64,000 bases of DNA from an uncultured Acidobacteriaceae bacterium. GTDB taxonomy: Bacteria; Acidobacteriota; Terriglobia; Terriglobales; Acidobacteriaceae. Position 1 is the stretch's first letter. Each line of letters begins with the position of its first letter. Location of the stretch: NCBI GenBank assembly GCA_963767315.1, contig CAVYDK010000014.1:45894-109893 (forward strand), in the 5' to 3' direction. The notes under the pieces were generated by a model. The model was not told the origin of the DNA. It did no database searches and saw only the letters and a program-made list of their open reading frames with translations. A program made the translations under genes and the position numbers. This document shows, in pieces, positions 115 to 21,854 of this stretch.

Positions 115-269
115 TGTAGTCGATTTTGTAACGGTCAAAGCACCCAAAAGCCACAAAGATCAACAAGGATCGGCAGGCAAGCGGTAAACAATTCAATCTA
201 AATCACTTATTTTCACTCGATTTCAACAAAGTACCACATCCGATTGAATCTGTTTTGGGAGCAGAGGGT
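115..269 (+). repeat. att-like arm repeat, copy 1, ending in a tRNA-Pro(TGG) anticodon-arm core
   Basis: TGTAGTCGATTTTGTAAC...CAAAGCACCCAAAAGCCACAAAGATCAACA...CACTTATTTTCACTCGATTTCAACA...TCTGTTTTGGGAGCAGAGGGT; near-identical blocks start at 2108, 9079 and 21570. Confidence 0.9.
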
Positions 270-1555
270 ATGCCTCGCCAAAATTCAATCCGGGTGCAAA
301 ACGGGCATAGTGAATGAACTCGGAGTCGAGCTTTGCAGTGATTTTCGACTGGAGAGGGCTTGGTCGGTGACGGTGGAGAAACACAGAAACGGTACCGGGG
401 CCGATGCAATGAGTCAGCGGGCACACTTCTCCCGTGGATTCTCGTCAACTTTATTGAAAGATGTCTGAAACGAAAGTTCACGCGGCTAGATCATAGCGAT
501 GATGCAGGCCACCAAGTCTCGGCATGGAAATGACCTTGCAACCTTCATTGCGATGTATCTCGACTTCACGACCCGCAGGCGTTCCCTTTGCCAGTGCAAG
601 ATGAGTTCGGTCGTCATGGTAGTACCGGACGTACTCACCCATTAATCGTTTCAGATGCCGTTCGTTAAGTACGATTACGTGGTCGAGTAAGTCCCGTCTA
701 CAGTTGCCGACCCAGCGTTCTGCAACACCGTTCTGCCACGGACTACGGAAGCCGGTCCGCTTCGGCTCTATGCCGAAGCTCTTCATGGTGTCAACAACTT
801 CTTCATTGAACTGCGTGCCGCGATCAAAGATCAGATACCCGGGTGCAGAATCATCAGGAAAGGCCTCGCGGAGTTGTTGGACAACCCAAGCACTGGTCGG
901 ATGCCTGGTGACGCTGCAGTGCAGAATCCGCCGCCGATCATGCGCGATGACGAAGAAGCAGTAGAGCACGCCGAAGGTGAGCGTCGGCACGGTGAAGAAA
1001 TCCATCGCGGCAATCGCTTCACCGTGGTTATTCAGGAAAGCCGCCCACCGTTTTGCCGGCTCAGGATTTCGAGGGGCCTTTCGCATCCAGCGCAGCACCG
1101 TTCGCTCAGAGATATCGAAGCCCAACATCTTTAACTCACCGCGTATGCGCGGCGCGCCCCACATCGGGTTCTCGGCAACCATGCGGAAGATTAGCTCGCG
1201 CAGTTTCCTGCTCACACATCTTCTGCCCGCACGCTTCCGATGCCGCGAAAGCCACGTCCAGTACAACTTGAACCCTGCGCGGTGCCAGCGGACGACCGTC
1301 TCCGGCTGAACAAGGATCAATGTCTGCTGCCAGCCGGGCCACATCCGCCGCAACATCACCCAAAACAATTTGTCCGGAGCGGCAAACCGCGTCTGCGGAT
1401 GCTTCTGTTTCAAGACTCCGAGTTGCTGCCGCAAGGCCAAGTTTTCCAAAAGTAGATTACGACGAGAACGGGCAGACATAACAAGCAGAACGAACAAGAG
1501 CCTCAACAAACGCAGCATGAAACCCTTGTATCAAAACATCATTCCTGCAAGATAA
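269..1555 (-). mobile_element. IS481/IS3-like (rve) insertion sequence, right end present, left end not found
   Basis: End motif T(A)TGCCTCGCCAAAATTCAATCCG at 269 recurs at 14989 and 21177; ~200 nt conserved non-coding end followed by the transposase. Confidence 0.7.
478..1518 (-). CDS. integrase-core (rve, DDE) transposase
   Basis: 346 aa; WGAPRIRGEL HTH, AMDFFTV, LIFDRG, SPWQNGVAERW, RLGGLHHRY motifs. Confidence 0.9.
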   Translation of the reverse strand: MLRLLRLLFVLLVMSARSRRNLLLENLALRQQLGVLKQKHPQTRFAAPDKLFWVMLRRMWPGWQQTLILVQPETVVRWHRAGFKLYWTWLSRHRKRAGRRCVSRKLRELIFRMVAENPMWGAPRIRGELKMLGFDISERTVLRWMRKAPRNPEPAKRWAAFLNNHGEAIAAMDFFTVPTLTFGVLYCFFVIAHDRRRILHCSVTRHPTSAWVVQQLREAFPDDSAPGYLIFDRGTQFNEEVVDTMKSFGIEPKRTGFRSPWQNGVAERWVGNCRRDLLDHVIVLNERHLKRLMGEYVRYYHDDRTHLALAKGTPAGREVEIHRNEGCKVISMPRLGGLHHRYDLAA

Positions 1556-1556
1556 A

Positions 1557-1829
1557 TCAACGGTAGGCTTCGCGGCGGTGACGGACGCCGATGACTTCGA
1601 TGGCGGTCTCGTTCCTGAATTCAAAGAAGAGCCGGTAGTCGCCACAGCGGAGGCAGAAGCCGGTCTGAGGTGGCTTGAGCTTCTTCACGTCGCCGTTGCG
1701 GGTGGCGAGGTAGCGGTCGGCGCAGTGGAGAATGTCGAGGGCTGTCTGACGGTCGATGCGGCGCAGATCGGAGCGGGCTTCGTCAGACCAAACGATGGAC
1801 AGGCGCGCGGGGGCTTGCTCCTCACTCAC
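1557..1829 (-). CDS. RelE/ParE family toxin
   Basis: 90 aa; IVWSDEARSDL...GDVKKLK...LRCGDYRLFF...VRHRREAYR. Confidence 0.85.
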   Translation of the reverse strand: MSEEQAPARLSIVWSDEARSDLRRIDRQTALDILHCADRYLATRNGDVKKLKPPQTGFCLRCGDYRLFFEFRNETAIEVIGVRHRREAYR

Positions 1830-2083
1830 AGACCGAACTCGCGGAGAACTTCTTCGTGGGGAGTGCCCTCACCACGGGCCAGCGATGCGCGGGCGCGATC
1901 CAGGGCGGCGGCGGTCTCCGGGGTAAGGTCTTCTTCCTCGACCGGGGCCATCGCCAGGGAGCGAGACAGCGGCTCGACCATGACCTCCAAGAGGCTGCGC
2001 ACAGCCGGGATTTTCTCCTCGGGCAATGCGTCGAGTAGAAAATGTGCCTGCTGGCGCTCTGATTGGAGATTGGTTTCCGGCAT
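1826..2083 (-). CDS. cognate antitoxin (acidic, 85 aa from ATG at 2083)
   Basis: Overlaps toxin start by 4 nt; C-terminus ARASLARGEGTPHEEVLREFGL is typical of antitoxins; the longer ORF-track start lies inside the arm repeat. Confidence 0.75.
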   Translation of the reverse strand: MPETNLQSERQQAHFLLDALPEEKIPAVRSLLEVMVEPLSRSLAMAPVEEEDLTPETAAALDRARASLARGEGTPHEEVLREFGL

Positions 2084-2107
2084 AGTCAATTCCCGCACGA
2101 TCTCTAG

Positions 2108-2257
2108 TGTAGTCGATTCTGTAACTGTCAAAGCACCCAAAAGCCACAGAGATCAACAGATTTCAGGTCGTTCGCGGTAAATAGCTCAATCAAAAACACT
2201 TATTTTCACTCAATTTCAACAGATTTCCATAAACGATTGGATCTGTTTTGGGACAGA
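2108..2257 (+). repeat. att-like arm repeat, copy 2
   Basis: TGTAGTCGATTCTGTAACTGTCAAAGCACCCAAAAGCC...TCTGTTTTGGGACAGA. Confidence 0.9.
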
Positions 2258-2831
2258 TGGAGCCGCCTCCATAACTCCCATAAATTGAATGAGTTACAAA
2301 GCGGTCGTTGGGGGAGCTTGTCTGCTTTTTGGGCTTCCACTTGGAACTCTGTTGGAGGTCAGCCAAATTCACTTTCGGATGTTTTTAGGGGGCAGTTATT
2401 GGGAGACCCAGTCCGGGTTTCTGTCGAACAAACCGGAGACGGCAGCAGTTGGCTGTTTCTTTCGAAAGCGCAGGGCGCTCTCTAATTCGAAGTTACCGCA
2501 AATCCCGTTTTCCCTGCACATCAGTTGGGAAGCAATAAGCGCCCGAGAAATCGACGAGGAACGATCCCGATTATGTGGTCGAGTCCAGGATGACACGGAA
2601 TCGCTCTTTGCTTTCGACTGGAAGTCCAGCTAAGCCCTCCATCCTGCTACTGAGAGGTAGCATCCAAGCGAACAAGGGCCGATGCAATTGGTTCCCGTTG
2701 ACAACGGTGTCCCTTTGGGAGCAGGCTTTACAACACAAAAATGCCGTTTGTGGGTGTTTCTGGAGTTAAGCTTTATGTTTAGTCCAAACGCTTACAGCAA
2801 TACGATTTCGATTCGATTTGAGGTGAAATCC

Positions 2832-5800
2832 ATGTTCAGAGCAACTGTCAAGCGGCAATCGATAAGAGCTTCCGTAAAGTACGTTTCCAACTTCCTCGCA
2901 ATCCTGCTGGTTTTTGCTGGTTTGGCTGGAGGCGTTGCGCGAGCCCAACTGTCGGGCAAAGGCGAGATCAAAGGTACGGTGAAGGATCCTTCGGGTGCCG
3001 TGGTGACGAATGCGACGGTGACGGCGACGGAGGTCTCGACCGGGGTGAGCGCGACGCGATCGTCGAACGCTTCGGGGCTCTATGATATTTCGCCGCTCGA
3101 CGCCGGGGTGTACAAGGTGACGGTGACGGCGAAAGGTTTCGAGAAGCTGACACAGACAGATGTGCAGGTGAATTCACTGGAGATCAGTGACTACGACCCT
3201 GTACTGACGGTTGGTTCGTCATCGGAGACGGTGACGGTCTCTACGCTGCCGCCGCAGCTTGAGACCTCGAACGCAGTGTTGGGCGCGACGATGGAGCAGG
3301 AGATGTACTCGGCGCTGCCGATCGAAATGGGTGCGTATGGCAACCCGGACCAGCGACGCGCCACCGATTTTGCGTTCCTGATGCCTGGTGTGCAGGGCAA
3401 CAATACCACGGGCAATCCCACGACCAATACCGGCGTTGTAAACGGTTCAGGCAGTCGCGGCGCGGTCTCCGATGTGTACATCGATGGTATTCCGTTTGTG
3501 CGCGCGGGCGGCAACGGCGACCCGCGCTATGTATGGACGGCGATCTCGGTCGACGCTGTCGATCAGTTTCAGGTGCAGACCAGCGGCTACTCGGCCATCT
3601 ACGAAGGCCAAGGCATTCAGAACTACACCATCAAGCAGGGTGGCAAGGACTACCACGGATCGGTGTATGAGTTCTTCCGTAACACCTCGTTGGATTCATG
3701 GGGTTTCTTTATAGCGAATAATCCTGCGACAGGTTTGCCTGCAAAGCCAGTTGAGCACAGCAATGAGTACGGCATCACACTGAGTGGTCCGCTGGTTCCG
3801 CTTCCTGGGTGGAAGGACAAGCTCTTCTTCTTCGGCAACTACAACGGCTTCCGCTATGCTGCGGGAACCCCAACGCCGATGAGCTTCCCGACCCTGGCGC
3901 AGCAGCAGGGCAACTTTCAGGGCGTCGCTGGCGCAGCAACTACTGCGAATCTGACTAACCCGATGGGGCCTGGCATCTACGACCCAAACACACAGACGCA
4001 GTGCACGGCCAACAACGTAAGTCAGAAGCCCTGCCGGTACCGCTATGGGTTTGTCGCGGGTGGTGTGGCGAGCCTTACGGATCCTGGTGGCGCAACTCTC
4101 GGGCCCGGTGGAACCGTCGCGGTGGATGTCATTCCCTCGTCGGAGTTCTCGTCCGTTGCGCTGGCTATGCAGGCCTTCCTTCCCACAACCGGCATCGGAG
4201 CGAATGTGGGCAACAACTATATCTCTCCGAACGCAACAGGGCTCTCCAACTGGACTACGACAGACCGCATCGATTACACCATCGGCGCGAAGGACACGCT
4301 GACTATGGTGGCTGCCATCGGGCGGCAGGCCAGCTCTGTTCCTGTCGGTCAGACCACGGCGGGCCGCAATGTTGGACCGATTCCGTATAACTACGGACAG
4401 GTCTACGCCCCCAAGACTGCGGTGGGCATCATTGAAGAGACTCACCTCTTTACCCCGAACCTGGTCAACCAGTTGAAGTACGGCTATGCCCGCTATAACG
4501 GACCTACGTTCGATGCGAACCAGGCTCCGCAGTACTCCGCGACGACCATGGGGATCACGGGGCAGCCGACAGGACCGGCCCAGCAGTCGTTCCCGATTGT
4601 GACCTTCAGCGGAACGAATGCTCCGACGAACTGGGGTGGTACGACTCCCAACGTCACACTCGCCGAGAACTATACGCTGCTGGACAACCTACAGTGGGTA
4701 AAGGGCAATCACACCCTGACCGTCGGCGGACAGAGCGCATGGCTGCTGTACAACACAATCTCGGCGACGGGCAACTCGACGCCATTGACCCTCGCCAATA
4801 CGGTGACAGAGACGGAAGGTTTGAACAACGCTTTCTCGACGATCACCAATACCGGAGCGGCCTACGCTAGCTTCCTGATTGGACAGATCGACAAGCCCAG
4901 CTTTACGCAATATGTGCAGCAGGAGTTTGGCGCGCGCTTCCGGGCCATCTCGCCGTATGTGCAGGACAACTGGAAAGTCAACTCGAAGTTGACCCTCGAT
5001 GTTGGGATTCGCTACGACTTCTTCCCGAGTGTCACGGAAGTGCATAACAATATGAGCTTCTTCAACCCCAACCTGCTTAATCCGGTAACTGGTGTGAAGG
5101 GAGCGTTGCAGTTTGCGAGCGCTGCTGTGCCCACGCCAGTGAACAACTACTACAAGAACTTCGGGCCACGCCTTGGGCTCGCCTATCAGGTTCTGCCGAA
5201 GACAGTGATCCACGCCAGCTACGGCATCATGTTTACCCACGGCGGCGCAGTCGGCGGATCGGCCACAAACACGGGCGGCGCTACGGTGAACAATGGCATT
5301 CTGGGATTCTCTGCCTCCCCGTCCTTCTCTGCGAGCGGTTCGTTGCTGAGTACGGCTCCATTCACTGGCACCCATGGTGCGTTGCCGACGTACTCGCTTG
5401 CCTGCGGTACTGCGTCGGGCGCACAGTATGGCACCGGCTACACGACGTTGACCGGGCCAGCAACCTGCGGCGCCACAGGGACGGCCGCTTATACGGCAGC
5501 TCCGTCGTCGATGGGCTACCCCGATCCCTATCTGGGGGGGCGCGCTCCTGAGTATATCAACTGGGCCTTCGGCATTCAGCAGCAGTTGACCAATGCAGTT
5601 GCCGTTACGGTCACCTATGTAGGGTCGGAGGGTCACTTCCTTCCCGCAGATGGAAGCAATGCTCGCGGCTACTGGGCCGATCAGCTTGATCCGAAGTATC
5701 TTTCTCTCGGGACCAAGCTGGCCGACACAGGAGCGAATGAGACGACAGATTGCGCCAATGCCAGTCTTGGGATTACATGCCCCGCCAACTTTGTCACTAC

Positions 5801-6701
5801 GCAGCAGCTGAATGCCGCCTTGAAGCCGTTCCCGTTCCAGGGCGTTACAGACGCCTTCGGCTATGTGGCCAACTCCAACTACAACGCGCTACAGATCGCG
5901 GGCAATATGCGCGCCTCGCATGGGGTGACGTTCAATGTGAACTACACCTTCTCGCGGTCGATCGACGATGGCGGAACCTTCCGTTCGGGCTATCCCATTC
6001 CGCAAGGTACCATTGCCAACGAGCCGACCATGTCGTGGCCGGCGGATCGCATCGAGCGCAGCTTGTCTACTTCGGATCAGCCGCAGCACTTTGTGGTGAC
6101 TGGCGTTTGGGACCTGCCCGTGGGAAGGACAGTGCTCGCCAAAAACGCAGTGGAGCGTGCAGTTCTCGGAGGGTTCAAGTTCTCCGAGACCTTCCAGGCC
6201 TACTCCGGATCGCCACTGGCGATTACCTCCTCAAGCTGCGGAACCAATCCTGCACAGTCTGCCTTCTCCTCTCCGGCGGGCTCCTGCATGCCGACCTTCA
6301 ATCCAGCCTTCAGCGGTCCGGCTCGCATCAACGGAAAGTGGGGGCAAGGGGTTACTGCCGCCAACTACAACCAATCAACGAATCCTGCTAGCTACTTCAT
6401 CGACTCCACTGCCTTCATCGCAACGCCTGCCTACCAGTTCGGCAATACGCCGCGTACGGCAGCGTATAACATCTACGGACCGGGCAACTACGATCTGGAC
6501 ATCGCTCTGGTTCGCAGCTTTCCGCTGCACCTGAGCGAAGCCTCCAAGTTCGACTTCCGGGCTGAGATGTATAACGTCACCAATCACACGAAGTTTGCCG
6601 TGGCCAGTGCCGTATTTGGCAACGCGGCCTTTGGACAGGTCACTGCCGACACAGCCGCAACCCGCAAGGCGGTGCAGTTGACAGCTCGCATCGAGTTCTA
6701 A
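2832..6701 (+). CDS. TonB-dependent receptor with N-terminal carboxypeptidase-regulatory-like domain
   Basis: GTVKDPSGAVV, YHGSVYEFFRN, YVQDNWKVNSKLTLDVGIRYD, C-terminal RKAVQLTARIEF; SD GAGGTG before ATG at 2832. Confidence 0.92.
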   Translation: MFRATVKRQSIRASVKYVSNFLAILLVFAGLAGGVARAQLSGKGEIKGTVKDPSGAVVTNATVTATEVSTGVSATRSSNASGLYDISPLDAGVYKVTVTAKGFEKLTQTDVQVNSLEISDYDPVLTVGSSSETVTVSTLPPQLETSNAVLGATMEQEMYSALPIEMGAYGNPDQRRATDFAFLMPGVQGNNTTGNPTTNTGVVNGSGSRGAVSDVYIDGIPFVRAGGNGDPRYVWTAISVDAVDQFQVQTSGYSAIYEGQGIQNYTIKQGGKDYHGSVYEFFRNTSLDSWGFFIANNPATGLPAKPVEHSNEYGITLSGPLVPLPGWKDKLFFFGNYNGFRYAAGTPTPMSFPTLAQQQGNFQGVAGAATTANLTNPMGPGIYDPNTQTQCTANNVSQKPCRYRYGFVAGGVASLTDPGGATLGPGGTVAVDVIPSSEFSSVALAMQAFLPTTGIGANVGNNYISPNATGLSNWTTTDRIDYTIGAKDTLTMVAAIGRQASSVPVGQTTAGRNVGPIPYNYGQVYAPKTAVGIIEETHLFTPNLVNQLKYGYARYNGPTFDANQAPQYSATTMGITGQPTGPAQQSFPIVTFSGTNAPTNWGGTTPNVTLAENYTLLDNLQWVKGNHTLTVGGQSAWLLYNTISATGNSTPLTLANTVTETEGLNNAFSTITNTGAAYASFLIGQIDKPSFTQYVQQEFGARFRAISPYVQDNWKVNSKLTLDVGIRYDFFPSVTEVHNNMSFFNPNLLNPVTGVKGALQFASAAVPTPVNNYYKNFGPRLGLAYQVLPKTVIHASYGIMFTHGGAVGGSATNTGGATVNNGILGFSASPSFSASGSLLSTAPFTGTHGALPTYSLACGTASGAQYGTGYTTLTGPATCGATGTAAYTAAPSSMGYPDPYLGGRAPEYINWAFGIQQQLTNAVAVTVTYVGSEGHFLPADGSNARGYWADQLDPKYLSLGTKLADTGANETTDCANASLGITCPANFVTTQQLNAALKPFPFQGVTDAFGYVANSNYNALQIAGNMRASHGVTFNVNYTFSRSIDDGGTFRSGYPIPQGTIANEPTMSWPADRIERSLSTSDQPQHFVVTGVWDLPVGRTVLAKNAVERAVLGGFKFSETFQAYSGSPLAITSSSCGTNPAQSAFSSPAGSCMPTFNPAFSGPARINGKWGQGVTAANYNQSTNPASYFIDSTAFIATPAYQFGNTPRTAAYNIYGPGNYDLDIALVRSFPLHLSEASKFDFRAEMYNVTNHTKFAVASAVFGNAAFGQVTADTAATRKAVQLTARIEF

Positions 6702-6770
6702 CGGTTTGGAACTCTACCCATGCGCGGAGTCGAAATCGCTGCGTATAACTGAAAAGCATTTTCACCAAAG

Positions 6771-6799
6771 AGAGCTGCCCTACAGGGCGGCTCTTTTTT
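6771..6799. terminator. intrinsic terminator between convergent genes
   Basis: AGAGCTGCCC-TACA-GGGCGGCTCT-TTTTT. Confidence 0.8.
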
Positions 6800-6821
6800 G
6801 GCTCCTATGGCTATCCGCCCT

Positions 6822-8336
6822 TCATTGCATTGGCTGAAACTGCCCCGTGCACTGCGGCAGCAGAGTAGGCAGATTTAACACATCCATCCCGCTGTACGCG
6901 GTGTTTGCGCCCGCAGACGGAGGCGGTGCCTGTGTCGTCACAACCCCTGCACCCTTTAGTTCAAAGTTCACGTGGCTTACCACTGCCCTGGTGAACTGCG
7001 TATGCACCTGCTCAGGCTTGATGTCCTTGATCGTGACGTTGTCCAGTCGCACCTCAGTAACATGTGCCGCGTCCTTGCCGGCTATCAGTACATCACCGGG
7101 TGTGCTGGCAAATATGTTCTGCAAGGTAATGTTTTTATAGTCGGGAATTTTGTCGCCCGGAATGGCCGGATCCACAAAGCCTTCCAGCGTTCCGTTGTTG
7201 TAGAACGGGCTGATCGCGATTGGCATCTGCACATTCCGCATGCAGATGTTGCGATACGTCAGGTCATGCACCAGCCCACCGCGCGCCGCGTTGCTCTTAA
7301 TGCGAATACCGCTGGTAGTGTGGTCCTCCGTCAACCCATCCACCAACAGGTCGCTCACTCCACTGTAGGTTTCGCTGCCTATGGACATCCCGTGCCCGTT
7401 GTAAAAATGGTTGTTGAGCACGCTCATGTGCGTCACGCCGGTCTTCACAGCGATGTTGTCGTCGCCATTGTCGATCCAGCTCTTGGTGATGGTGATGTTA
7501 GTCGAACTTCCAGGATCGATGCCATCAGTGTTGCGCGCGTCTACACCGCGTATCGTCGGCGTCTGCAGATGAACGCCCCATGCAGTAAAGCCGTCTGTGT
7601 TGTTCACTGCCACATGGAAATTAGGAGAGTTGTGCAACGTAATGCCATAGATCACAAAGCCGTCGGCATGATTGCCCACAATCAGCCGTGTGCTGTAGTA
7701 GCGCAACTGCTTCGGCTCGGCCGCACGCGCCATTTGCCACCAACTGTAATCATGTCCAACGACCGTCGCGCCGCCGCGTCCGTCAATCACGCCGTCTCCC
7801 ATGATGGCCGCGTTCTTCACATTCACGCTTATCAGCGGCTTGCAGGGACGTCCCTGGGGCGTCTCCGCAGGCGGAGTATTGCCCTTAGATGCATTCTGCG
7901 CAGTGATGAAGGACGTACTTACGTTACTCATAGTTCCGCATAGCAGCTTCGTGGCGGAGTCAGCGGGATTGGGGTCGAAGTCCTTCGGGTCGCGCGATCC
8001 ATAGAGCACCACGCTCTTGTCGATCAGCAGAGTCACGCCTTCGCGCAGTTCCAGTGCTCCACTCAGAAACGCATTTGTGTTTTTTCCTGCTGCCAGTTCC
8101 ACGGCCATGCCGGGCCTGCAACGATCCAGCGCCTGCTGGATACGCGCTGTATCGGTGGTCTTCTCAAACTTTTCCGCGAGCTTATCGGCCTCGCCGGTTT
8201 TCTCTGCTTTCAGGATTACGCAAGTCGGTGGAATCACCGGCTCAGTCACTGTGCGCGTATCCTGCGCTTGTGCAGCGAACGCAGTTGTTATACATGCCAC
8301 TACGCAGTACATCAAACACCATGTGGACGTCTTCAA
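6822..8336 (-). CDS. GH28 polygalacturonase, secreted
   Basis: Signal peptide; GH28 motifs NTDG, GDD, GHG, RIK in the expected order. Confidence 0.92.
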   Translation of the reverse strand: MKTSTWCLMYCVVACITTAFAAQAQDTRTVTEPVIPPTCVILKAEKTGEADKLAEKFEKTTDTARIQQALDRCRPGMAVELAAGKNTNAFLSGALELREGVTLLIDKSVVLYGSRDPKDFDPNPADSATKLLCGTMSNVSTSFITAQNASKGNTPPAETPQGRPCKPLISVNVKNAAIMGDGVIDGRGGATVVGHDYSWWQMARAAEPKQLRYYSTRLIVGNHADGFVIYGITLHNSPNFHVAVNNTDGFTAWGVHLQTPTIRGVDARNTDGIDPGSSTNITITKSWIDNGDDNIAVKTGVTHMSVLNNHFYNGHGMSIGSETYSGVSDLLVDGLTEDHTTSGIRIKSNAARGGLVHDLTYRNICMRNVQMPIAISPFYNNGTLEGFVDPAIPGDKIPDYKNITLQNIFASTPGDVLIAGKDAAHVTEVRLDNVTIKDIKPEQVHTQFTRAVVSHVNFELKGAGVVTTQAPPPSAGANTAYSGMDVLNLPTLLPQCTGQFQPMQ

Positions 8337-8413
8337 GACTTGCCTCCACCACGCCGGATTCTAGCATTCCAGCATAACGGTCTGACATGGTCGAGCCTTT
8401 TGGTCAGGCCTGC

Positions 8414-9078: not shown

Positions 9079-9194
9079 TGTAGTCGAATTTGTAGCTGTC
9101 AAAGCACCCAAGAGCTACAAGGATCAACAGGGATCGGTAGCTACGTGGTAAACACTTCAATCAAAAGACCTTATTTCCACTCGATTTCAACAGA
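9079..9194 (+). repeat. att-like arm repeat, copy 3, cut before the core by IS1595
   Basis: TGTAGTCGAATTTGTAGCTGTCAAAGCACCCAAGAGC...CACTCGATTTCAACAGA, then the IS1595 TIR. Confidence 0.88.
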
Positions 9195-9235
9195 GGAAGA
9201 TTATCCCCCTGAGACAAGGTGGTACAATCTTTGGC

Positions 9236-12165: not shown

Positions 12166-12169
12166 TTCG

Positions 12170-12484: not shown

Positions 12485-12496
12485 GGGAGCCGGCCC

Positions 12497-13856: not shown

Positions 13857-14988
13857 GCCGGCAGACGCTATCGTTCTTCGACAAGCCGGGCCTCCAGCTT
13901 CTGCTCTTTGGCGGCAAGGGGGGCGTGGGCAAGACCACCTGCGCCACGGCTGCCGCGTTGCGCCTCTCCGCGCTGGCACCGCAGCGTTCTCTCCTGCTGG
14001 TTTCCACCGACCCCGCCCACTCTGTACGCGACAGCCTGGCTGGCTATCTGCCCCCCGGCAAGCTGCACGTTCTCGAGCTGGACGCTCAGCAATGCCTCAC
14101 CAAGTTCCGCCAGCAGAACAGCGGCATGTTGCGCGAGATTGCCGCTGCCGGCACCTTCCTGGACGACGACGACATCAATCAATTCCTCAGCCTGTCTCTG
14201 CCCGGCCTGGACGAGTTGATGGCTCTGTTTGAAATCTCCTCGTGGGTCGAGGCCCGCCAATACGACTGCATCGTGGTGGATACGGCGCCCAGCGGCCACA
14301 CCTTGCGCCTGCTGGCCATGCCCGACCTCATCCGGCGATGGCTCGGCATGTTGGAGGTGTTGCTGGCCAAGCGCCGCTACATGCGGCGGGTCTTCAGTCG
14401 CGATGCCGGTTCCGATCGCCTCGACCTCTTTGTGACCAAGTGGAAGTCCACGCTCCATCTGGCCGAGAAGCTGCTGCACGATCCGCGGCGCACTCAGTTC
14501 GTTCCGGTTTCCATTGCCGAGCCGCTCAGCGTCTGCGAAACCGTGGCTCTCTTCCGGGAATTGCAGGGCCGGAAGATGCCGGTATCCGAACTGGTCGTGA
14601 ATCAGCTCCACCTGGAGTGCGATTGCCCCACCTGCAAGGACGCCGCAACGGACGAACAGTTGCAAATCCAGCGGCTGATGACAGGCATCGTGCTTCCCTG
14701 CCCGGTGTGGGGCATCGGGCTGCAGCAGGAGGAGGTCCGCGGCCAGCAGTTGCTCATGCAGTTCTGGGACCACGCGCAACCGATCGCTCGACGGCCGGAG
14801 ATTGCCGTCGGCTGCAGCATCGTCCGCAGGCCCGCTGCGCTGGTCGAGCCGGCCGTGCTGGTTCCGGCCCCGGCGCCTTCGGCGCGAATGCAGTTTATGC
14901 TCTTTGCCGGCAAGGGCGGCGTGGGCAAAACAACGCTCTCTTGCGTTACCGCCGTGCGCATGGCACGCGACTTTCCGGACAAGCGGGT
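13853..14988 (+). pseudogene. ArsA/GET3-family ATPase, truncated early in its second domain by an IS end
   Basis: GGKGGVGKTT, STDPAH, DTAPSGHTL; second GKGGVGKTT followed within ~20 aa by the IS end at 14989. Confidence 0.85.
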
Positions 14989-16318
14989 TGTGCCTCGCCA
15001 TAATTCAATCCGGGGGCAAAACGGGTCTGATGAATGAAATCAGAATCTGGCTTTACAGTACTTTTCGATTAGAGAAGGCTTTTCGGTGACGAGAGAGACC
15101 TACGGAAACGGGCCAGAGTCGACGCAACGAGTCAGCGGGCACGCCTCTCCCCTGGCTTTCGTCAACTCTCTAAAAAATCTTCGCAACGAAAGCTCAGGCG
15201 GCCAGATCGTAACGATGATGCAAGCCGCCAAATCTTGGCATGGATACGACTCTGCAATCTCGGGTGGAATTCGCCTCATCTTCACGATCCGCCGGGGTTC
15301 CCTTATCCAGCGCAAGGTGCGTCCGGTCGTCATGGTAGTAACGAACATACTCGCTCATCAATCGTTTCAGGTGTCGTTCGTTGAGCACTATCACGTGGTG
15401 AGCAAGTCACGTCTACAGTTGCCAACCCAACGTTCTGCGACGCCGTTCTGCCAGGGACTATTCAGGCTGGTTCGCTTGGGCAGGATGCCGAAGCTCTTCA
15501 CCGTATTGACAACCCCCTGATTGAAATTTGGGCCATGATCGAAGATCAGGTAACGGGGACCCGAATCGCACGGGAACGATTCACGCAGCTGGTGAGAGAT
15601 CCAGGCGCTACTGGGATGCTTCGTCACGTTGCAGTGCAAAATCCGCCTCCGGTCATGTGAGATGACAAAGAACAGTAAAGCAAGCTGAAGGTCAACGTCG
15701 GCACTTCAAAGAAATCCATCGCTGCAATCGCTTCACGATGATTGCTCAGGAAAGCCGCCCAACGCTTCGCCGGCCCGGGATTTCGAGGTGCTTTCCTCAT
15801 CCAGCGCAATACGGTTCGCTCCAATATCTCGAAGCCGAGCATTCTCAACTCGCCATGAATGCGCGGTGCTCCCCAGGTCGGGTTCTCAGCAACCATGCGG
15901 TAGATGAGCTCGCGCTGCTCACGATTCGTCGGCTTTCGTCCCAGAGGAGCTTTCTTGCGTGCGATCTTCTTCCAATAGAGCTTGAACCCGTTACGATGCC
16001 ATGGACTACCGTTTCCGGTTGAACGAGAATCAGTGCCGTCTTCCATTCAGGCCAGAACTGCATCAAGAGCATCCAGAAACACCTATCTGCAGCAGCAACT
16101 TTTGGCTGCGGATGCCTCTGCTTTAAAACAGCGAGTTGCTGTCGAAGAGCCATGTTTTCCAGAAGCAGGTCGCGGCGAGAACGAAATGCTCGGATAGATA
16201 GAGAAAATAGGAGTCGGAACAGTCGCTGCATGAGCCAGTGTTACACATAGACGGAGCGGTCCGGCCCCACAGATCATCTGATTGATTCAAATGTAGATCG
16301 CAACTTTGACGAACGACA
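14989..16318 (-). mobile_element. degenerate IS481-like element (frameshifted rve transposase)
   Basis: TGT...ACA ends with imperfect IRs (10/16); transposase split across ORFs 15845-16231, 15624-16046, 15391-15639 and 15194-15394, homologous to 478-1518. Confidence 0.85.
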
Positions 16319-16857
16319 GTCACAAACGAATGAACATTACGTTTCAGCCCGATTACAAGCTGTGATTGTTCGGTTAATCCGGAATATCCATTTTGCTTGT
16401 CCGGATACCCTGATCGGTGTTGCGGGGTACACTTTAGATAACTATCAATGGACGACCGCTGCATCTCCACGCCAGGCAACTGCGCAGACACAGAAAGATA
16501 TTTACAGACGGCGAAATACGCATTAGGCACAAGAACTAACAAGAGCCCGTGAGCGAGTTGCATTCGCTTGGGCGCACTTAAAGATGTGAAATCAACACCG
16601 GGCCAGGTCGTCCGCAGCGCACCAATGCGTGACGCGAATCACAATAGTCTTGCGAATAAAATATAGGATTCACCCCATATTGAAATCCCTGGGCTAGAAC
16701 CGTAGGCATGAAAAAGTCTACAGTTTCCGAACCGGTTCAAGCTCCCCAGATCAACCTGCTCCTGCGTTGGATCGGCAGACTCTTGGCGACTGACAGCAAC
16801 GGGACCCAATCGCCCAGGCACTGTCCTGGCGTAGTCGATTTGTTTCGGAGGATTGTG

Positions 16858-19800
16858 ATGTGTCGAAAGTTGTTGCAGCTCAGCGGACCTCAGTCTTCAA
16901 GAGGCCGCAAGAGCAAGTTTGTGCCACGCGTTCTGCAGAGACTCATGCCCGCGAATTGGTTCGCAATAGTCATCCTGCTTCTTCTTCCCTTTCTTTGCCT
17001 TGCGCAGTACACCACGGGAGTGGTTCAAGGCTCTGTTCTGGACCCATCGGGCGCTCTGGTCAAGGACGCTTCGGTAGAGCTGAAGAGCCTGGAAACAGGA
17101 GGGGGCCGCACCTTTCCCACCACGGCCAACGGCCTCTATTCTTTCACCGCTGTACCGCCAGGCAGATACCGCCTTCGCGTCACGGCGACAGGCTTTGCTT
17201 CTCGGTCCGCCGATATCGCCATTTCCACCAGCCAAACCACCACACAGAACTTCACGCTGCAGATCGGACAGGCGTCCACCACCGTCAACGTCCAGGCGGA
17301 TACGGCGCCGCTGCTCGATGCCTCCGATCCCTTGCGAGGCGTCACCTACAACGAAACCGAGGTCGGCACACTTCCCAACCTCAACCGCAACATCAACAGT
17401 CTGGTGATTCTTGCGTCGGGGGCCACGCCAACCTTCAATCCACGCGGAGGGGAGTTTACCACCGTCAATGGCGCGCAGGCCGGCCAGATTAACGCCAATG
17501 GCGGACGCTCCAAGTCCACCTCCACGCAGCTCGACTACACGGACGCCAACGATTGGGAGTTTGGCGGCATAGCACTCGCAACCGAACCAACGCCCGACAT
17601 GCTCGGCGAGTTCCAGGTGCTCACCAACAACTGGGCCGCGGAGTACGGCGTGAAATCCTCCGCCGAGATCGTCATGGTCACCCGGAGCGGAAGCAACTCG
17701 CTGCACGGCACCGCATACGACTTTCTGCAGAACGCCGCGTTGAACGCTCGGGACTACTTCGACACCACGGGCAGACCCGACCCCCTGGTCCAGAACTATT
17801 ACGGCTTCACCCTCGGCGGCCCGATCCTGCGCAACCGAACTTTCTTCTTCGCCGGGTACGAGGGCCGGTCAACCCATGGCGCAGGCACCACCCTGGTGGC
17901 GGACCTGCCCACCGCAGCCGCTCGCAGCGCCGTTCCGTCGCCCACGGTTCAAAGCCTGCTGCAGTTGCTCCCTCTGCCAACGGTCGCAACCAGCAACCCG
18001 CTCATCGGCACTTCCTCTATCGCCGAGCCCAATCCCTCAACCGGAAACCAGTACCTGCTGCGCGCCGATCATTCCTTCTCCGCCAGGAACAACCTGACAC
18101 TGCGCTTCTACAGCAACTCCGGCACCAGCGTCGACCGTGTCTCGAACTCCCTGCCTCAGTACGACTCCAGCTTCGATCCGGTCGGCAGGAACGCCATGAT
18201 CGCCGATACCTGGACGCCGCGGTCCAACAGCACAAACGAACTGCGCATTGCCTACGGCCGGTCGAGCGCCCTCTTTGAACCGCTCACCGAGCCGGCGACT
18301 CCACGCTTCAACGTCACTGGGTTGGTTGGCTTCGGCACGGTGGCAAACTGGCCCCAGGGGCGCGTCTTCGACGTCTATCAACTGAGCGACGCAACCAGTT
18401 GGGTTCATGGGCGGCACATCGTCAAGGCCGGCTTCGATCTGCGCCATATTGAAGACAACTCGCTCAACTACACCAACAGCCGAGGCGCATTCACATTCAC
18501 CTCCGTGAATAACTTCCTGGCCGGTACGATCGGCAGTTACACCCAGGAGTTCGGAAACACATACCGCGGGTTCCGTGAGAACTATAACGGCGCTTTCGTG
18601 CAGGACGATTGGAAGCTGAGGCCCACCCTGACCCTGAACCTTGGCCTGCGCTATGAATTTCAAGGCAGCCAGAGCGATGCCAACCACCTGCAGTCGGTGC
18701 TCGACATCGCGGGGACGGGGAACATCGGTCAACTGGGCAGCGGACCGCTCGGCGTCTTCAACACGCAGAACTCTCTGATTCGCTCGCATCCCGCTCTGCT
18801 GGCGCCGCGCTTTGGCTTTGCGTGGGACCCCGCGAACGGACAATTTGTGCTCCGCGGCGGCTATGGCATTTATTACGATTCGCTGATCTTCAACGGCTTG
18901 CAAGCTGGCCGCACCGCGCCGCCCACCGATTACACAGGCACGCTCAGCAGCTTCAGCGGAAGCAACACCCTCGCCAACCTCCTGGCAGGCACAGCTCCGC
19001 TGCAGACGACTTTGACCGCACAGGCCGGCAGCTTCAACAATGTCACCAACCTTGGCAGTGTTGTCTCTGAGAATCCCAACCTCCGCAATCCTTACCAACA
19101 GCAATACAGTTTCGGCGTTGAGGTTCGCCTCGCAGCGTCGATCATGGCGGACCTGTCCTACGTCGGCTCGCGCGGTTCGGCCCTCACCACCTATGAGCCC
19201 ATCAACTCGACGCTGTCCGTGGACCGTCCCGCTCCGGCTACCAGCGCCGCCGATCAGGCCAATCGGCTCGCGCAGTTCCAGGCGTTTTATGCCTCCGAGA
19301 ACGGCCCCGGCAACCCGCGCGTCGATCCTCGCTTCAACGACGTCAGCTATATCAGCGACACCGGCAGCTCAACGTACAACTCGATGCAGTTCTCCGCGTT
19401 GAAGGCTCTGTCCCACGGCCTACAGTTGCGCGCCTCCTATACATGGTCGCATTCCATCGATAACAGCTCGGATTACAGCCCGGGCCAGGGCGCGCTCGAT
19501 ACCAACTTTGAGCAGGACCAGTTCAATCCCGGGGCGGAGCGCGGCAGCTCCGACTTCGATGTCCGTCACCGTTTTGTTCTCTCTCACGTTTGGCAGGTCC
19601 CCGTCTTCCGCAATCAAAAGGGAATCGAAGGCCACATCCTCGGCGGCTGGACGTTTGCTTCCCTCAACCAGTTTCAGTCCGGCCTACCGTTCACGGTCAT
19701 CACCGGCTCGGTTGCGGGAATCCCGGACGCGAATATGGACGGCAATACAGTCTCGGGTCTCGATAACTCCCGGCCCAACTGCGCCGTTGGCGGCTCGTTC

Positions 19801-20127
19801 ACCATGGGCAACCCGTTGTCGAACACGAAGTACGTCCCGGTCCTGCTCGGCAACAATGGGAACTGCGGCCGGAACACGGCCCGCTTGAACAAATTCATCA
19901 ACTTCGATTGGACCTTTTCCAAGAACATCCGCGTCTTCGAGAGAGGATTGCTCAACTCCGGCCCGTGGAACCTTGAATATCGCGCCGACCTGTTCAACGC
20001 GTTCAACAACCCGTATCTCTCGGTTTCGGGCACCAACTTCCTGAATCTCTCAAGCCCGGGCTTTGGCCTCTACAACACCGCAGCCGCCAGCCGGCGCATT
20101 CAGATGGCCCTCAAGCTCAACTGGTAG
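16858..20127 (+). CDS. TonB-dependent receptor (CarboxypepD-like N-terminus)
   Basis: GSVLDPSGALV, LHGTAYDFLQN, FVQDDWKLRPTLTLNLGLRYE, RRIQMALKLNW; SD GGAGG before ATG 16858 (16945 is an alternative start). Confidence 0.92.
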   Translation: MCRKLLQLSGPQSSRGRKSKFVPRVLQRLMPANWFAIVILLLLPFLCLAQYTTGVVQGSVLDPSGALVKDASVELKSLETGGGRTFPTTANGLYSFTAVPPGRYRLRVTATGFASRSADIAISTSQTTTQNFTLQIGQASTTVNVQADTAPLLDASDPLRGVTYNETEVGTLPNLNRNINSLVILASGATPTFNPRGGEFTTVNGAQAGQINANGGRSKSTSTQLDYTDANDWEFGGIALATEPTPDMLGEFQVLTNNWAAEYGVKSSAEIVMVTRSGSNSLHGTAYDFLQNAALNARDYFDTTGRPDPLVQNYYGFTLGGPILRNRTFFFAGYEGRSTHGAGTTLVADLPTAAARSAVPSPTVQSLLQLLPLPTVATSNPLIGTSSIAEPNPSTGNQYLLRADHSFSARNNLTLRFYSNSGTSVDRVSNSLPQYDSSFDPVGRNAMIADTWTPRSNSTNELRIAYGRSSALFEPLTEPATPRFNVTGLVGFGTVANWPQGRVFDVYQLSDATSWVHGRHIVKAGFDLRHIEDNSLNYTNSRGAFTFTSVNNFLAGTIGSYTQEFGNTYRGFRENYNGAFVQDDWKLRPTLTLNLGLRYEFQGSQSDANHLQSVLDIAGTGNIGQLGSGPLGVFNTQNSLIRSHPALLAPRFGFAWDPANGQFVLRGGYGIYYDSLIFNGLQAGRTAPPTDYTGTLSSFSGSNTLANLLAGTAPLQTTLTAQAGSFNNVTNLGSVVSENPNLRNPYQQQYSFGVEVRLAASIMADLSYVGSRGSALTTYEPINSTLSVDRPAPATSAADQANRLAQFQAFYASENGPGNPRVDPRFNDVSYISDTGSSTYNSMQFSALKALSHGLQLRASYTWSHSIDNSSDYSPGQGALDTNFEQDQFNPGAERGSSDFDVRHRFVLSHVWQVPVFRNQKGIEGHILGGWTFASLNQFQSGLPFTVITGSVAGIPDANMDGNTVSGLDNSRPNCAVGGSFTMGNPLSNTKYVPVLLGNNGNCGRNTARLNKFINFDWTFSKNIRVFERGLLNSGPWNLEYRADLFNAFNNPYLSVSGTNFLNLSSPGFGLYNTAAASRRIQMALKLNW

Positions 20128-20214
20128 TCGCGGTTCGGGCCTCTCGCCTGCGGTCTGTAACAATGGCTGGGCCGCGAAGTCCGCGAAGACCAAGCCGTTC
20201 GGGAGAAAAATTCC

Positions 20215-21162
20215 ATGCTCACCTTCAATCGCAGGCAACTCCTCCGCGGGTTTGGCGCCGCCGGCATTGTGTCGGCTCTTGCACCGCAGCTGCTGGCGAA
20301 GGCAGAAACAGAAGATGCGTTTCAGTTTTTGTTTATCACCGACTGCCACATTCAGCCGGAACTGGATGCAGCCAGCGGGACGGACTCCGCGTTCAAAAAA
20401 GCTTGCGCGATGCAGGCCGATTTCACGATCCAGGGCGGAGACCATGTCTTCGATGCCTGCGCTGTCAGCAAGCAAAGGGCACTCTCTCTGTTCGACCTCT
20501 ACGCAAAGACCGAGCAGGACCTCGGCATGAAGGTGTATCACACCCTTGGCAATCACGATTGCCTCGGAATTGGAGGGACTGTTGTTTCGCCGCAAGATCC
20601 CCAATACGGCAAGCGGTTGTACGAAGAGCGCTTTGGCAAGACCTACTACTCGTTCGACCGCAGGCATTGTCACTTCGTGGTGCTGGACTCCATCCATCCG
20701 CTGCCTGGCCATACATTTGAGGGCCGGGTTGACGACGGCCAACTGGCCTGGCTCGCCACGGATCTTGCGGCGCTCGCGCCCGGCACGCCCGTCATCATCG
20801 TCACACACATCCCTCTGGTCACTGCAGTTGCCGCCTATATTCCAGCCGAATCGCCGATGCGCGAGTACATCCCTCTGCTCAGCGTCTCCAACTCCGCGCA
20901 GGTTCTCCAGACGCTTGCGGGCCACAATGTGATCGCCGTATTGCAGGGCCACACTCACATCAACGAGACCGTCATCTGGAAGGGCGTTCCATTCATCACA
21001 GGCGGCGCGGTCTGCGGCAACTGGTGGCATGGCAGCCATCTTGGCAACCCGGAGGGTTTCACCGTTGTCAAAGTTGCCGGCGCGAAGGTCACGACTCACT
21101 ATGAGACTTATGGCTTCAAGAGCGTGGATCCACAAAAGGACTTTGGCTATAAGGCATCTTAA
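20215..21162 (+). CDS. Tat-exported calcineurin-like metallophosphoesterase
   Basis: RRQLL twin-Arg signal; DxH, GD, GNHD, GHxH motifs. Confidence 0.88.
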   Translation: MLTFNRRQLLRGFGAAGIVSALAPQLLAKAETEDAFQFLFITDCHIQPELDAASGTDSAFKKACAMQADFTIQGGDHVFDACAVSKQRALSLFDLYAKTEQDLGMKVYHTLGNHDCLGIGGTVVSPQDPQYGKRLYEERFGKTYYSFDRRHCHFVVLDSIHPLPGHTFEGRVDDGQLAWLATDLAALAPGTPVIIVTHIPLVTAVAAYIPAESPMREYIPLLSVSNSAQVLQTLAGHNVIAVLQGHTHINETVIWKGVPFITGGAVCGNWWHGSHLGNPEGFTVVKVAGAKVTTHYETYGFKSVDPQKDFGYKAS

Positions 21163-21176
21163 AATGCACATCATCT

Positions 21177-21517
21177 TGTGGCTCGCCATAATTCCATCCG
21201 ACGCGAGGAGAACCCAGATTTTTGAGCTTGGAAGCGGTTTGGAAGGGATATTTAACTGTGAAGAGGGTTGCCGGTGACTACGGATATCCTCGAATACGGT
21301 GTCTACTCGGCGGCGAAAGGGAGGCAGGCATCTCCCACAGTTCGTCTTCAACTCTGATGTGATGTTCGCAGCAGTTCAGGCTGCGCGGTCGTAGCGATGA
21401 TGCAGGCCACCGAGTCTTGGCATGGAGATGACCATGCAACCTGCATCGTGATAGTTGTGCCTCGCCTTCTCGGCTAGCCGGAGTTCCCTTCTCCAACGCG
21501 AGATGAGTACAATCCAC
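21177..21517 (-). mobile_element. IS481-like right-end remnant with transposase 3' fragment
   Basis: TGTGGCTCGCCATAATTCCATCC end; fragments HLALEKGTPA and MPRLGGLHHRYDRAA. Confidence 0.8.
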
Positions 21518-21569
21518 CCGGTGTTTTCTCGATCTTCCACCTCGCAGGAAGACTCAGGACAATAAGCGC

Positions 21570-21854
21570 TGTAGTCGATTTTGTAGCTGACAAAGCACCC
21601 AAAAGCCACAAAGATCAACAGGGTTCAGCTCATTTGCGGTAAACAATGCAATCGAAAACACTTATTTTCACTCGATTTCAACAGGATTCAATAAACGGTC
21701 TGATCTGCTTTGGGAGCAGAGGGTCGTCAGTTCGAATCTGACCGCCCCGACCAGCACAATCCTTTATTTTCTATGCCTTCTCTTTGGGGAAGAAAGGCCT
21801 GCTTGTTGAATCTTGTGGTTCACTGGGGATTCTACAGCTACAGAATCGACTACA
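21570..21854 (+). repeat. attP-like junction: arm copy 4 + tRNA-Pro 3' half + inverted arm
   Basis: Left TGTAGTCGATTTTGTAGCTG versus reverse complement of right TGTAGTCGATTCTGTAGCTG (19/20); CCACAA..TCAACA at the same offset in both arms. Confidence 0.85.
21704..21753 (+). pseudogene. 3' half of tRNA-Pro(TGG) (att core)
   Basis: TCTGC-TTTGGGA-GCAGA anticodon arm, GTTCGAATC T-arm, CCA end; no D-arm or 5' acceptor strand upstream. Confidence 0.9.

What the first reader, a model, noticed from the sequence alone, without database searches (positions are those of the whole stretch)
115..21854. Integrase-free cargo array punctuated by four tRNA-Pro att arms that all start at the same TGTAGTCG boundary
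Seen: four copies (115, 2108, 9079, 21570) of a ~115-155 bp block. Each starts at TGTAGTCGAWTYTGTARC and runs toward a tRNA-Pro(TGG) anticodon-arm core. Unrelated DNA lies left of each copy: a TA operon, the middle of a pectinesterase gene, an IS remnant. No recombinase gene occurs between 115 and 21854. Established: tyrosine integrases often cross over in tRNA anticodon loops, and tandem integration leaves arm+core junctions; tRNA-anchored cargo islands of this kind are known in Prochlorococcus (tycheposons). Inference: the identical outer boundary joined to arbitrary DNA, even mid-gene, fits a mechanism that cuts at the arm edge and captures DNA as cassettes mobilised in trans better than it fits random deletion.
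Basis: partly seen in the sequence, partly recalled or inferred. Interest (0 to 1): 0.75.

Follow-up and report, generated by a model that had tools for sequence, protein, structure and literature searches.

The report
Integrase-less island array at tRNA-Pro
The four repeats are the leftover attachment-site arms of mobile islands that inserted one after another into a proline tRNA gene of a soil acidobacterium; the islands have no integrase of their own, a known kind of arrangement, but the arm family is widespread in Acidobacteriaceae and I found no description of it.

Summary
Four direct copies of a 117-150 bp block start exactly at TGTAGTCGA.

The block is the P arm of an attR junction. In 38 distinct copies from many Acidobacteriaceae genera, it runs 135±1 nt from TGTAG to the anticodon stem of tRNA-Pro (TGG or CGG). 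Conservation falls to zero one base left of TGTAG.

Complete autonomous relatives (26-32 kb, in G462 and G187) sit between an intact tRNA-Pro and this arm. They carry an excisionase-like gene, a tyrosine integrase, Replic_Relax and a HerA/TraD-like ATPase.

The window's island (about 25 kb) has four cassettes with no site-specific recombinase. Its cargo is ParE toxin-antitoxin pairs, IS copies, pectin-degradation genes and gas-vesicle gene fragments. The assembly holds no cognate integrase.

This fits accretion of integrase-less, CIME-like elements. At least ten more such cassettes exist in other genomes.

Crossover maps to the anticodon region, not the arm edge. The sharp edge is best read as the outer limit of the functional attP.

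The parts
115..270 (+). attR junction 1. It holds the TGTAG box (115-146), the P arm to 249, the anticodon stem-loop of tRNA-Pro(TGG) at 250-264 and 5-6 nt of the variable region. It is then cut by an IS insertion at 271.
   Evidence: profile positions 1-150, E 2.7e-39
271..1580 (-). IS481/IS3-like insertion sequence (transposase 478-1518). It is one of three copies plus a remnant, found almost only inside this island (one further 82-bp match on C18), and the copies are 74-79% identical to each other.
1557..2140 (-). ParE toxin (1557-1829) and upstream antitoxin-like ORF (start near 2083). The pair abuts the outer edge of arm 2. A paralogous pair abuts arm 1, just left of the window.
   Evidence: The segment 1544-2253 is 91% identical to the toxin-antitoxin pair plus arm of a Terracidiphilus MAG.
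2108..2300 (+). attR-like junction 2. It holds a full 135-nt P arm (2108-2242) and an anticodon-like hairpin CTGTTTTGGGACAG (2243-2256), followed by non-tRNA sequence TGGAGCCGCCTCCA... The same variant occurs in G036.
   Evidence: (78% over 191 bp with L029)
2682..9078 (.). Cargo of cassette 2: a TonB-dependent-receptor-like outer-membrane barrel (2682-6701 +), a GH28 polygalacturonase (6822-8336 -) and a pectinesterase lacking its N-terminal third (8414 to about 9046-9078 -).
9079..9195 (+). attR junction 3. The P arm is truncated on its inner side at about 117 nt, so there is no core.
   Evidence: profile positions 1-116
9196..21569 (.). Cargo of cassette 3: an IS1595 transposase (10061-10966 -), gas-vesicle gene fragments (AAA_5/GvpN-like, GvpL/F, GvpG, ArsA-like; 11089-15037 +), a degenerate third copy of the IS481/IS3-like element starting at 14991, a second outer-membrane barrel (16708-20127 +) and an IS remnant (about 21179-21560).
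21570..21753 (+). attR junction 4, intact. It holds the P arm (21570-21704), the anticodon stem-loop (21705-21719) and the rest of the tRNA-Pro(TGG) 3' half to CCA (21720-21753). This stretch is 98% identical over 58 bp to the intact tRNA upstream, so the two form the direct repeat that bounds the whole island.
21754..21854 (-). P' arm of the second type. Its outer end is an inverted copy of the first 53 nt of the P arm (the 18-mer is at 21837-21854). With junction 4 it forms a complete 285-bp P-core-P' unit.
   Evidence: The same architecture is seen in L143, L144, L107, L115 and L134.
21871..21945 (+). Start of the chromosomal flank, which marks the right border of the island. In a Terracidiphilus MAG the homologous sequence follows directly after the last tRNA 3' half. 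The 8.2 kb cassette present there is missing here.

Best explanation
Window 115-21854 is most of a roughly 25 kb genomic island (C14:42508 to about 67763). It was built by serial site-specific integration (accretion) into tRNA-Pro(TGG).

Each integration by a tyrosine integrase that exchanges strands in the anticodon region rebuilds the tRNA from a copy carried by the element. It pushes the previous 3' half downstream, now preceded by the element's P arm. Four such attR junctions remain, in direct order.

The P arm is a 135-nt, length-constrained scaffold. It has an outermost 32-bp 'TGTAG box' and several TTCAAYAG boxes. These are most likely binding sites for the integrase arm domain and accessory proteins such as Xis (inferred, not shown). 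The same box also closes the P' side, either direct or inverted.

The sharp outer boundary is the functional edge of attP. Beyond it, elements of this family share nothing.

The four cassettes between junctions carry no integration or transfer genes, so they are CIME-like passengers or remnants. Their cargo is toxin-antitoxin pairs, IS copies and gene clusters that are partly broken.

In this genome the inner junctions are damaged and no cognate integrase is in the assembly, so the inner cassettes are probably fixed. The intact tRNA and intact junction 4 still bound the whole island as one unit that a helper integrase could excise.
For: Shown:
- The intact tRNA-Pro(TGG) lies 3.4 kb upstream, and a 58-bp direct repeat of its 3' part lies at junction 4.
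- 38 distinct arms from many genera all start at TGTAG. The spacing to the anticodon stem is 135 nt in 30, 136 in 7 and 134 in 1. Information content is about 0 in the 20 nt to the left.
- Arms of the same design precede 3' halves of either tRNA-Pro(TGG) or tRNA-Pro(CGG).
- In L056 the intact tRNA and the displaced fragment have different T arms, which places the crossover between the anticodon stem and the T arm.
- Autonomous elements bounded by an intact tRNA-Pro plus box on one side and P arm plus core on the other exist in G462 (two paralogues) and G187. Their syntenic module is D12 methylase, HerA/TraD-like ATPase, Replic_Relax, HTH_17 and a 364-aa tyrosine integrase.
- The same integrase family lies near such arms in G459 (as a pseudogene), G091, G200 and G358.
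- There is no PF00589 hit on contig C14, and no integrase above 29% identity to this family anywhere in the assembly.
- About 15 cassettes delimited on both sides, 4 here and at least 10 in seven other genomes, lack any tyrosine recombinase.

Inferred:
- The protein-binding role of the boxes.
- The order of integrations.
Against: - No excision product, circle or empty site was observed.
- No remnant of the integrase module is left in any cassette here, so descent from autonomous elements by deletion is not demonstrated.
- A P' arm (21754-21854) sits between the last tRNA 3' half and the chromosomal flank. Simple accretion does not predict this. It needs a later deletion of a terminal cassette, as suggested by comparison with a Terracidiphilus contig.
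- The link between this integrase family and the arm rests on repeated synteny, not on an assay.
- The assembly is 91.6% complete, so a helper integrase could be in the missing part.
Confidence: 0.78

Rival explanations
1. The cassettes form an active non-autonomous system rather than fossils. The arm-plus-core is a portable recombination site under selection of its own. It lets arbitrary DNA, such as toxin-antitoxin pairs, defence genes and CAZyme clusters, be moved in trans by a rare Xis/Int helper element, much as MITEs relate to transposons or integron cassettes to IntI.
For: - Integrase-less cassettes outnumber autonomous elements: about 15 delimited cassettes against about 5 elements with an integrase.
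- Arms occur in at least 17 of 401 family genomes, the integrase family in 11 of 401, and only 2 genomes were flagged for both.
- L056 is a 1.1 kb element holding only a toxin-antitoxin pair, with proof of a real crossover.
- Arm length and boxes are conserved across genera although the cargo is unrelated.
- A conserved P' variant lacks the tRNA 3' half ('GTTCTCTACC', in three loci). It could dock safely only at array-internal sites.
- The toxin-antitoxin pair plus arm segment is 91% identical to that of a Terracidiphilus MAG.
Against: - In this window three of the four cores are broken and no helper is present.
- The arm census scored only two candidates per genome and missed CGG-type arms, so the co-occurrence figures are weak.
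- No circles or polymorphic occupancy were observed.
- Decay of autonomous elements followed by accretion gives the same static picture.
Confidence: 0.17
2. The TGTAG...CTACA ends are terminal inverted repeats of a DDE-type transposon or MITE that is cut at the arm edge.
For: - The ends read TG...CA.
- The unit 21570-21854 has 18-20 bp inverted ends.
- IS481/IS3-like transposase genes lie close to three of the four arms.
Against: - No target-site duplication flanks any unit.
- On the P' side the box is in direct, not inverted, orientation in the autonomous elements and next to the intact tRNA here.
- The cargo lies outside the inverted ends.
- The IS has its own, different ends (TGCCTCGCCAAAATTC...).
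- The fixed 135-nt distance to a tRNA anticodon loop, and the T-arm swap in L056, point to site-specific recombination at the core.
Confidence: 0.03
3. The repeats are assembly artefacts, that is contig joins or a chimeric MAG contig.
For: The genome is a metagenome-assembled draft (22 contigs, 91.6% complete), and repeats attract misjoins.
Against: - The copies are only 80-86% identical, too diverged to cause misjoins.
- The same architecture, including tandem arrays behind tRNA-Pro, recurs in independent assemblies with Mb-scale contigs.
- A related contig shares the order of toxin-antitoxin pair, arm, core and P'.
Confidence: 0.02

Closest known systems
CIMEs (cis-mobilizable elements) and tandem accretion at tRNA or other att sites, as described for ICESt1/ICESt3-related islands of Streptococcus thermophilus (definition in PMC5704250)
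   Same: The elements are flanked by att sites and lack integration and transfer genes. They stand in tandem with each other behind one target gene, and a related autonomous element with Int/Xis exists. The composite can in principle be excised from the outermost sites.
   Different: - Different phylum, target (tRNA-Pro anticodon region) and integrase family.
- No remnant of the helper module is left in the cassettes, so origin by decay is not shown.
- The arm has an unusually strict 135-nt geometry and an exact outer box that also occurs on the P' side.
- Cis-mobilisation is untested.
Classical tRNA-targeting tyrosine-integrase islands and prophages with arm-type attP (lambda-like attP with P and P' arms; P4-like tRNA integrases). 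This comparison is from general knowledge.
   Same: - Crossover lies in the anticodon region.
- The element carries the tRNA 3' half and the displaced fragment is left at attR.
- attP is about 250-330 bp with arm sites on both sides of the core, and an Xis-like gene lies next to int.
   Different: The integrase is only distantly related to characterised ones: the best PDB matches are Xer-like or phage integrases at E 1e-12 or weaker, and it falls below every NCBIfam cut-off. No arm-binding domain was recognised by Pfam.
Tycheposons of Prochlorococcus (bioRxiv 10.1101/2020.12.28.424599)
   Same: Both are cargo islands next to tRNA genes, with full and partial tRNAs, successive integrations that push older elements inward, and degenerated remnants.
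   Different: Tycheposons as defined carry their own integrase plus a replication module. The helper elements here instead carry Replic_Relax, a HerA/TraD-like ATPase, a D12 methylase and defence cargo. There is no shown relationship of integrases or att arms. The elements in the window have no integrase at all.
Integron cassette arrays (IntI, attI, attC)
   Same: Both are arrays of recombinase-less cassettes, each ending in a structured site with imperfect inverted ends and an exact outer boundary, and mobilised by one tyrosine recombinase.
   Different: There is no IntI and no attI/attC. The cassettes are 1-15 kb, hold several genes and lie in both orientations. The recombination core is a tRNA anticodon arm flanked by long double-stranded arms.

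Membership tests
tRNA-integrated genomic island made by a tyrosine integrase | An intact target tRNA at one end and a direct repeat of its 3' part at the other | tested here: met
   tRNA-Pro(TGG) lies at C14:42431-42507. A 58-bp repeat (98% identical) lies at window 21705-21759.
tRNA-integrated genomic island made by a tyrosine integrase | The element encodes its own tyrosine integrase | tested here: not met
   There is no PF00589 hit on the whole contig C14 and none with my custom HMM in C14:40000-70000. The feature is met in related elements of G462 and G187.
tRNA-integrated genomic island made by a tyrosine integrase | Crossover lies inside the shared core (anticodon region) | tested here: met
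   This was tested in a relative, not in the window. L056 has different T arms in the intact tRNA and the displaced fragment but a shared anticodon loop.
tRNA-integrated genomic island made by a tyrosine integrase | Excision to a circle and an empty attB | not testable with these tools
No empty site was found among 40 relatives.
CIME (cis-mobilizable element) | Flanked by attL and attR sites | tested here: met
   This holds for the island as a whole. For the inner cassettes the att sites are present but damaged on the core side.
CIME (cis-mobilizable element) | Lacks integration and transfer genes | tested here: met
CIME (cis-mobilizable element) | Derived from an ICE or IME by deletion | tested here: inconclusive
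   tblastx of three autonomous elements against the array finds only the att arms, the tRNA and the IS. No module remnant was found.
CIME (cis-mobilizable element) | Mobilised when a helper element integrates next to it | not testable with these tools
   This needs an experiment. Arrays that mix autonomous elements and integrase-less cassettes do exist in G462.
Tycheposon | Carries its own integrase plus the tycheposon replication module | tested here: not met
   Neither is present in the window. The helper elements carry Replic_Relax and a HerA/TraD-like ATPase instead.
Integron | IntI integrase with attI and attC-bounded single-gene cassettes | tested here: not met
   There is no integrase. 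The helper integrase scores far below the integron-integrase cut-offs. The cassettes hold several genes.
DDE transposon or MITE with terminal inverted repeats | Target-site duplication, and a transposase whose ends match | tested here: not met
   No duplication flanks the units. The nearby IS has different ends.

The most novel reading that the evidence does not exclude
Acidobacteriaceae harbour a family-wide cassette system anchored at tRNA-Pro. In it, a fixed-geometry 135-nt arm plus anticodon core, closed by a TGTAG box on both sides, works as a portable recombination site.

Most carriers would be integrase-less cassettes of 1-15 kb. These hold toxin-antitoxin pairs, efflux pumps, CAZyme clusters or RHS/immunity pairs, and are moved in trans by a rare Xis/Int helper element.

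A second cassette type, whose P' lacks the tRNA 3' half, would dock only at array-internal sites, so arrays can grow without risking the essential tRNA.
Probability: 0.2. Interest if true: 0.7.

Novelty: new member of a known kind. Interest (0 to 1): 0.4.

Why it matters
Acidobacteriaceae are among the most abundant soil and peat bacteria, and little is known of how they exchange genes.

This work defines a recognisable att arm with an exact start, a 135-nt spacing and a tRNA-Pro core. It also identifies a candidate helper element: the excisionase-like gene, Int, Replic_Relax and a HerA/TraD-like ATPase, with restriction-modification and CBASS cargo.

Recombinase-based surveys of mobile elements would miss these islands, because most cassettes carry no recombinase. 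The arm could serve as a search handle for them.

If the cassettes move in trans, they would be a route by which carbohydrate-degradation and defence genes spread in peat and soil communities. For the window itself the result is modest: a decayed island array of a known kind.

Tried and rejected
- DDE transposon or Tn7-like end model. Considered because of the TG...CA ends and the inverted copy. Rejected: no target duplications, direct boxes on P' in autonomous elements, and cargo outside the inverted ends.
- RNA gene. There is no Rfam match in window 1-23000. I did not test covariation.
- Phage or satellite origin. Two pattern scans of IMG/VR gave nothing relevant.
- Integrase next to the G187 arm at C2. 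It is adjacent to tRNA-Phe, so it belongs to another element.
- Remnants of the helper module in the window's array. None were found.
- Empty-site comparison. The 260-bp right flank has no DNA match in 40 relatives.
- Read-level test for circles or misassembly.
- Co-occurrence of arm and integrase over 401 genomes. Not informative, because the arm search scored two candidates per genome and missed CGG-type arms.
- Other half of the pectinesterase gene. Not searched for.
- Metagenome-contig scan. Not used.

Full report
**1. The observation**

The 18-mer TGTAGTCGAWTYTGTARC occurs at 115, 2108, 9079 and 21570 on the + strand, and none is expected by chance. The four blocks align from exactly that base at 80-86% identity over 117-155 bp.

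One is inverted at 21837-21854. The other is a 22-nt box on the + strand, 72 bp downstream of the intact tRNA-Pro(TGG) at C14:42431-42507, which is 3.4 kb left of the window.

A profile built from 38 arms finds only these four arms in the 3.04 Mb assembly, plus the inverted piece (profile positions 1-53). Every arm starts at profile position 1.

The state of each copy differs:
- Copy 4 is followed by the full 3' half of tRNA-Pro, from the anticodon stem to CCA (21705-21753).
- Copy 1 reaches the anticodon stem-loop and is then cut by an IS at 271.
- Copy 2 has an anticodon-like hairpin followed by non-tRNA sequence. It shares this with a copy in G036.
- Copy 3 ends after about 117 nt.

- ParE toxin-antitoxin pairs lie left of copies 1 and 2.
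- A pectinesterase lacking profile positions 1-111 lies left of copy 3. Its breakpoint is known only to within 33 bp.
- An IS remnant lies left of copy 4.

**2. What the block is**

A pattern scan of one genome per prokaryotic species returned many Acidobacteriaceae hits. After orienting and aligning them, I had 38 distinct arms from many genera.
- All begin with TGTAG.
- Information content in the 20 nt to the left is about zero.
- The distance from TGTAG to the anticodon stem is 135 nt in 30 copies, 136 in 7 and 134 in 1.
- The arm holds a conserved 32-bp terminal box (TGTAGNCGAWWTYGTAGCNGTCAAAGCMYCC), a variable middle part and several TTCAAYAG boxes.
- It is followed by the anticodon stem-loop and 3' half of either tRNA-Pro(TGG) or tRNA-Pro(CGG).

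In a Granulicella MAG (L056), an intact tRNA-Pro(TGG) is followed by 1.1 kb, then an arm, then a tRNA 3' half. By my own reading of the sequence (no Pfam run), the 1.1 kb holds only a DUF433/PIN-like toxin-antitoxin pair. The T arm of that 3' half differs from the T arm of the intact gene. This is the signature of site-specific recombination with crossover between the anticodon stem and the T arm. The incoming element supplies the new 3' half.

**3. The recombinase**

No PF00589 domain lies on the 296 kb contig that holds the window.

In G462 (CAVYQC010000005.1) I found a long array behind an intact tRNA-Pro(CGG). In order it holds:
- the tRNA, then 47 bp, then a direct TGTAG box;
- element B (31.5 kb);
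- a P-core-P' unit;
- a 10 kb cassette without integrase;
- a second P-core-P' unit;
- element A (26.5 kb);
- a third P-core-P' unit.

Elements A and B share an 8.3 kb module: D12 methylase, HerA/TraD-like ATPase, Replic_Relax, a zinc-ribbon protein, an HTH_17 (excisionase-like) protein, a 364-aa tyrosine integrase and a VWA protein. Element A also carries a type I restriction-modification system and a CBASS pair (CD-NTase plus Cap15).

G187 has the same module in a 31.8 kb element. That element lies between an intact tRNA-Pro(TGG) with a box and a P arm with a 3' half.

The integrase family also lies near such arms in G459 (as a pseudogene), G091, G200 and G358. It occurs in 11 of 401 sampled family genomes.

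I therefore take it as the cognate integrase, on the basis of repeated synteny and not of an assay. It is a generic tyrosine recombinase, far below all curated family cut-offs.

The window's genome has no member of this family. Its best matches are 27-29% identical.

**4. The cassettes**

In the window's island, four cassettes lie between the tRNA and the four junctions. None has a tyrosine recombinase or any remnant of the helper module. I ran no separate search for serine recombinases. The cargo is:
- a fragment of a CHB_HEX/Fn3 surface protein;
- three diverged copies and a remnant of one IS481/IS3-like element, found almost only in this island;
- two ParE toxin-antitoxin pairs;
- a TonB-dependent-receptor-like barrel, GH28 and a truncated pectinesterase;
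- an IS1595;
- gas-vesicle gene fragments;
- a second barrel.

At least ten more cassettes delimited on both sides, in seven other genomes, also lack an integrase. They lie in G027, L056, L130, L133, L137, L141, the Terracidiphilus contig and G462.

This matches the published definition of CIMEs and of tandem accretion (PMC5704250).

**5. The sharp edge**

I see no evidence for that.
- The mapped crossover is 135 nt away.
- There are no target duplications.
- The box is direct on the P' side of autonomous elements and inverted in another P' type.
- The cargo lies outside the inverted ends.

The simplest reading is that the box is the outermost site of a length-constrained nucleoprotein complex. 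Only elements with a whole arm can move. Between elements, only the arms are homologous, so any exchange of cargo leaves a break exactly at the box.

**6. State of the island here**

The intact tRNA and junction 4 form a 58-bp direct repeat, so the whole island could still be excised if a helper were supplied. The inner junctions are damaged.

The P' arm at 21754-21854 lies between the last 3' half and the chromosomal flank. A Terracidiphilus contig has the same unit followed by an 8.2 kb cassette and a terminal attR. The first bases after the box match in both. So a deletion of that cassette here is likely.

**7. Limits**

- No reads could be examined, so neither activity nor assembly correctness was tested directly.
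- The diverged copies, and the recurrence of the architecture in independent long contigs, argue against an artefact.
- No published description of this element family turned up in two literature searches. That is a weak negative.

Noticed in passing
window 271-1580 and 14991 to about 16200, remnant about 21179-21560; also L001 16105-17390: One IS481/IS3-like element is present as three copies and a remnant, 74-79% identical to each other. They occur almost only inside this island; the rest of the genome has one 82-bp match on C18. The same IS family sits in or beside att arms in other genomes: inside an arm in G036 (L017 15647), about 200 bp after the tRNA in G187 (L153 about 11130), and next to the arm in L130. 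It may prefer these arms as a target, or it may travel with the cassettes.
   Followed up: partly
window 1557-2107 and L001 17392-18007; L089, L115, L056: Toxin-antitoxin pairs (ParE type here; a DUF433/PIN-like pair in L056, by my own reading of the sequence) lie directly against the outer edge of the P arm in several unrelated genomes. The antitoxin start lies 25-50 bp from the TGTAG box. The L056 element consists of nothing else.
   Followed up: partly
L144 14446-14563, L134 about 4860, L145 10714: A conserved P' variant follows the anticodon arm with GTTCTCTACC... instead of the tRNA 3' half. Integration of such an element into the intact gene would break the tRNA. It may be confined to array-internal sites.
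   Followed up: no
L151 8877-14436; L143 1532-3083: The autonomous helper element of G462 carries a type I restriction-modification system (HsdR/M/S) and a CBASS pair (nucleotidyltransferase plus Cap15 effector). It is therefore also a defence island.
   Followed up: partly
L147 2766-3050: Behind the G187 element lie two further, progressively decayed mini units, each a short box plus a degenerate tRNA-Pro-like 3' half. They look like scars of older integrations.
   Followed up: no
L156 3897-3973 and about 11392 (-): In G158 the 3' part of tRNA-Pro(CGG), with about 100 bp of its downstream flank, is duplicated in inverted orientation 7.4 kb away without a recognisable P arm. The integrase homologue lies outside this pair.
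   Followed up: no
window 11089-15037: A gas-vesicle gene fragment (GvpN-like AAA_5, GvpL/F, GvpG, ArsA-like ATPase) has no GvpA in the stretch I annotated. It is bounded by the IS1595 and by the third IS481/IS3-like copy. This agrees with an earlier first-reader note.
   Followed up: partly
window 2243-2300 and L016 14100-14160: The right side of junction 2 (an anticodon-like hairpin, then the small hairpin TGGAGCCRCCTCCA) is conserved between this genome and G036. It is therefore not a random decay product. Its origin, for example a secondary target site, is unknown.
   Followed up: no
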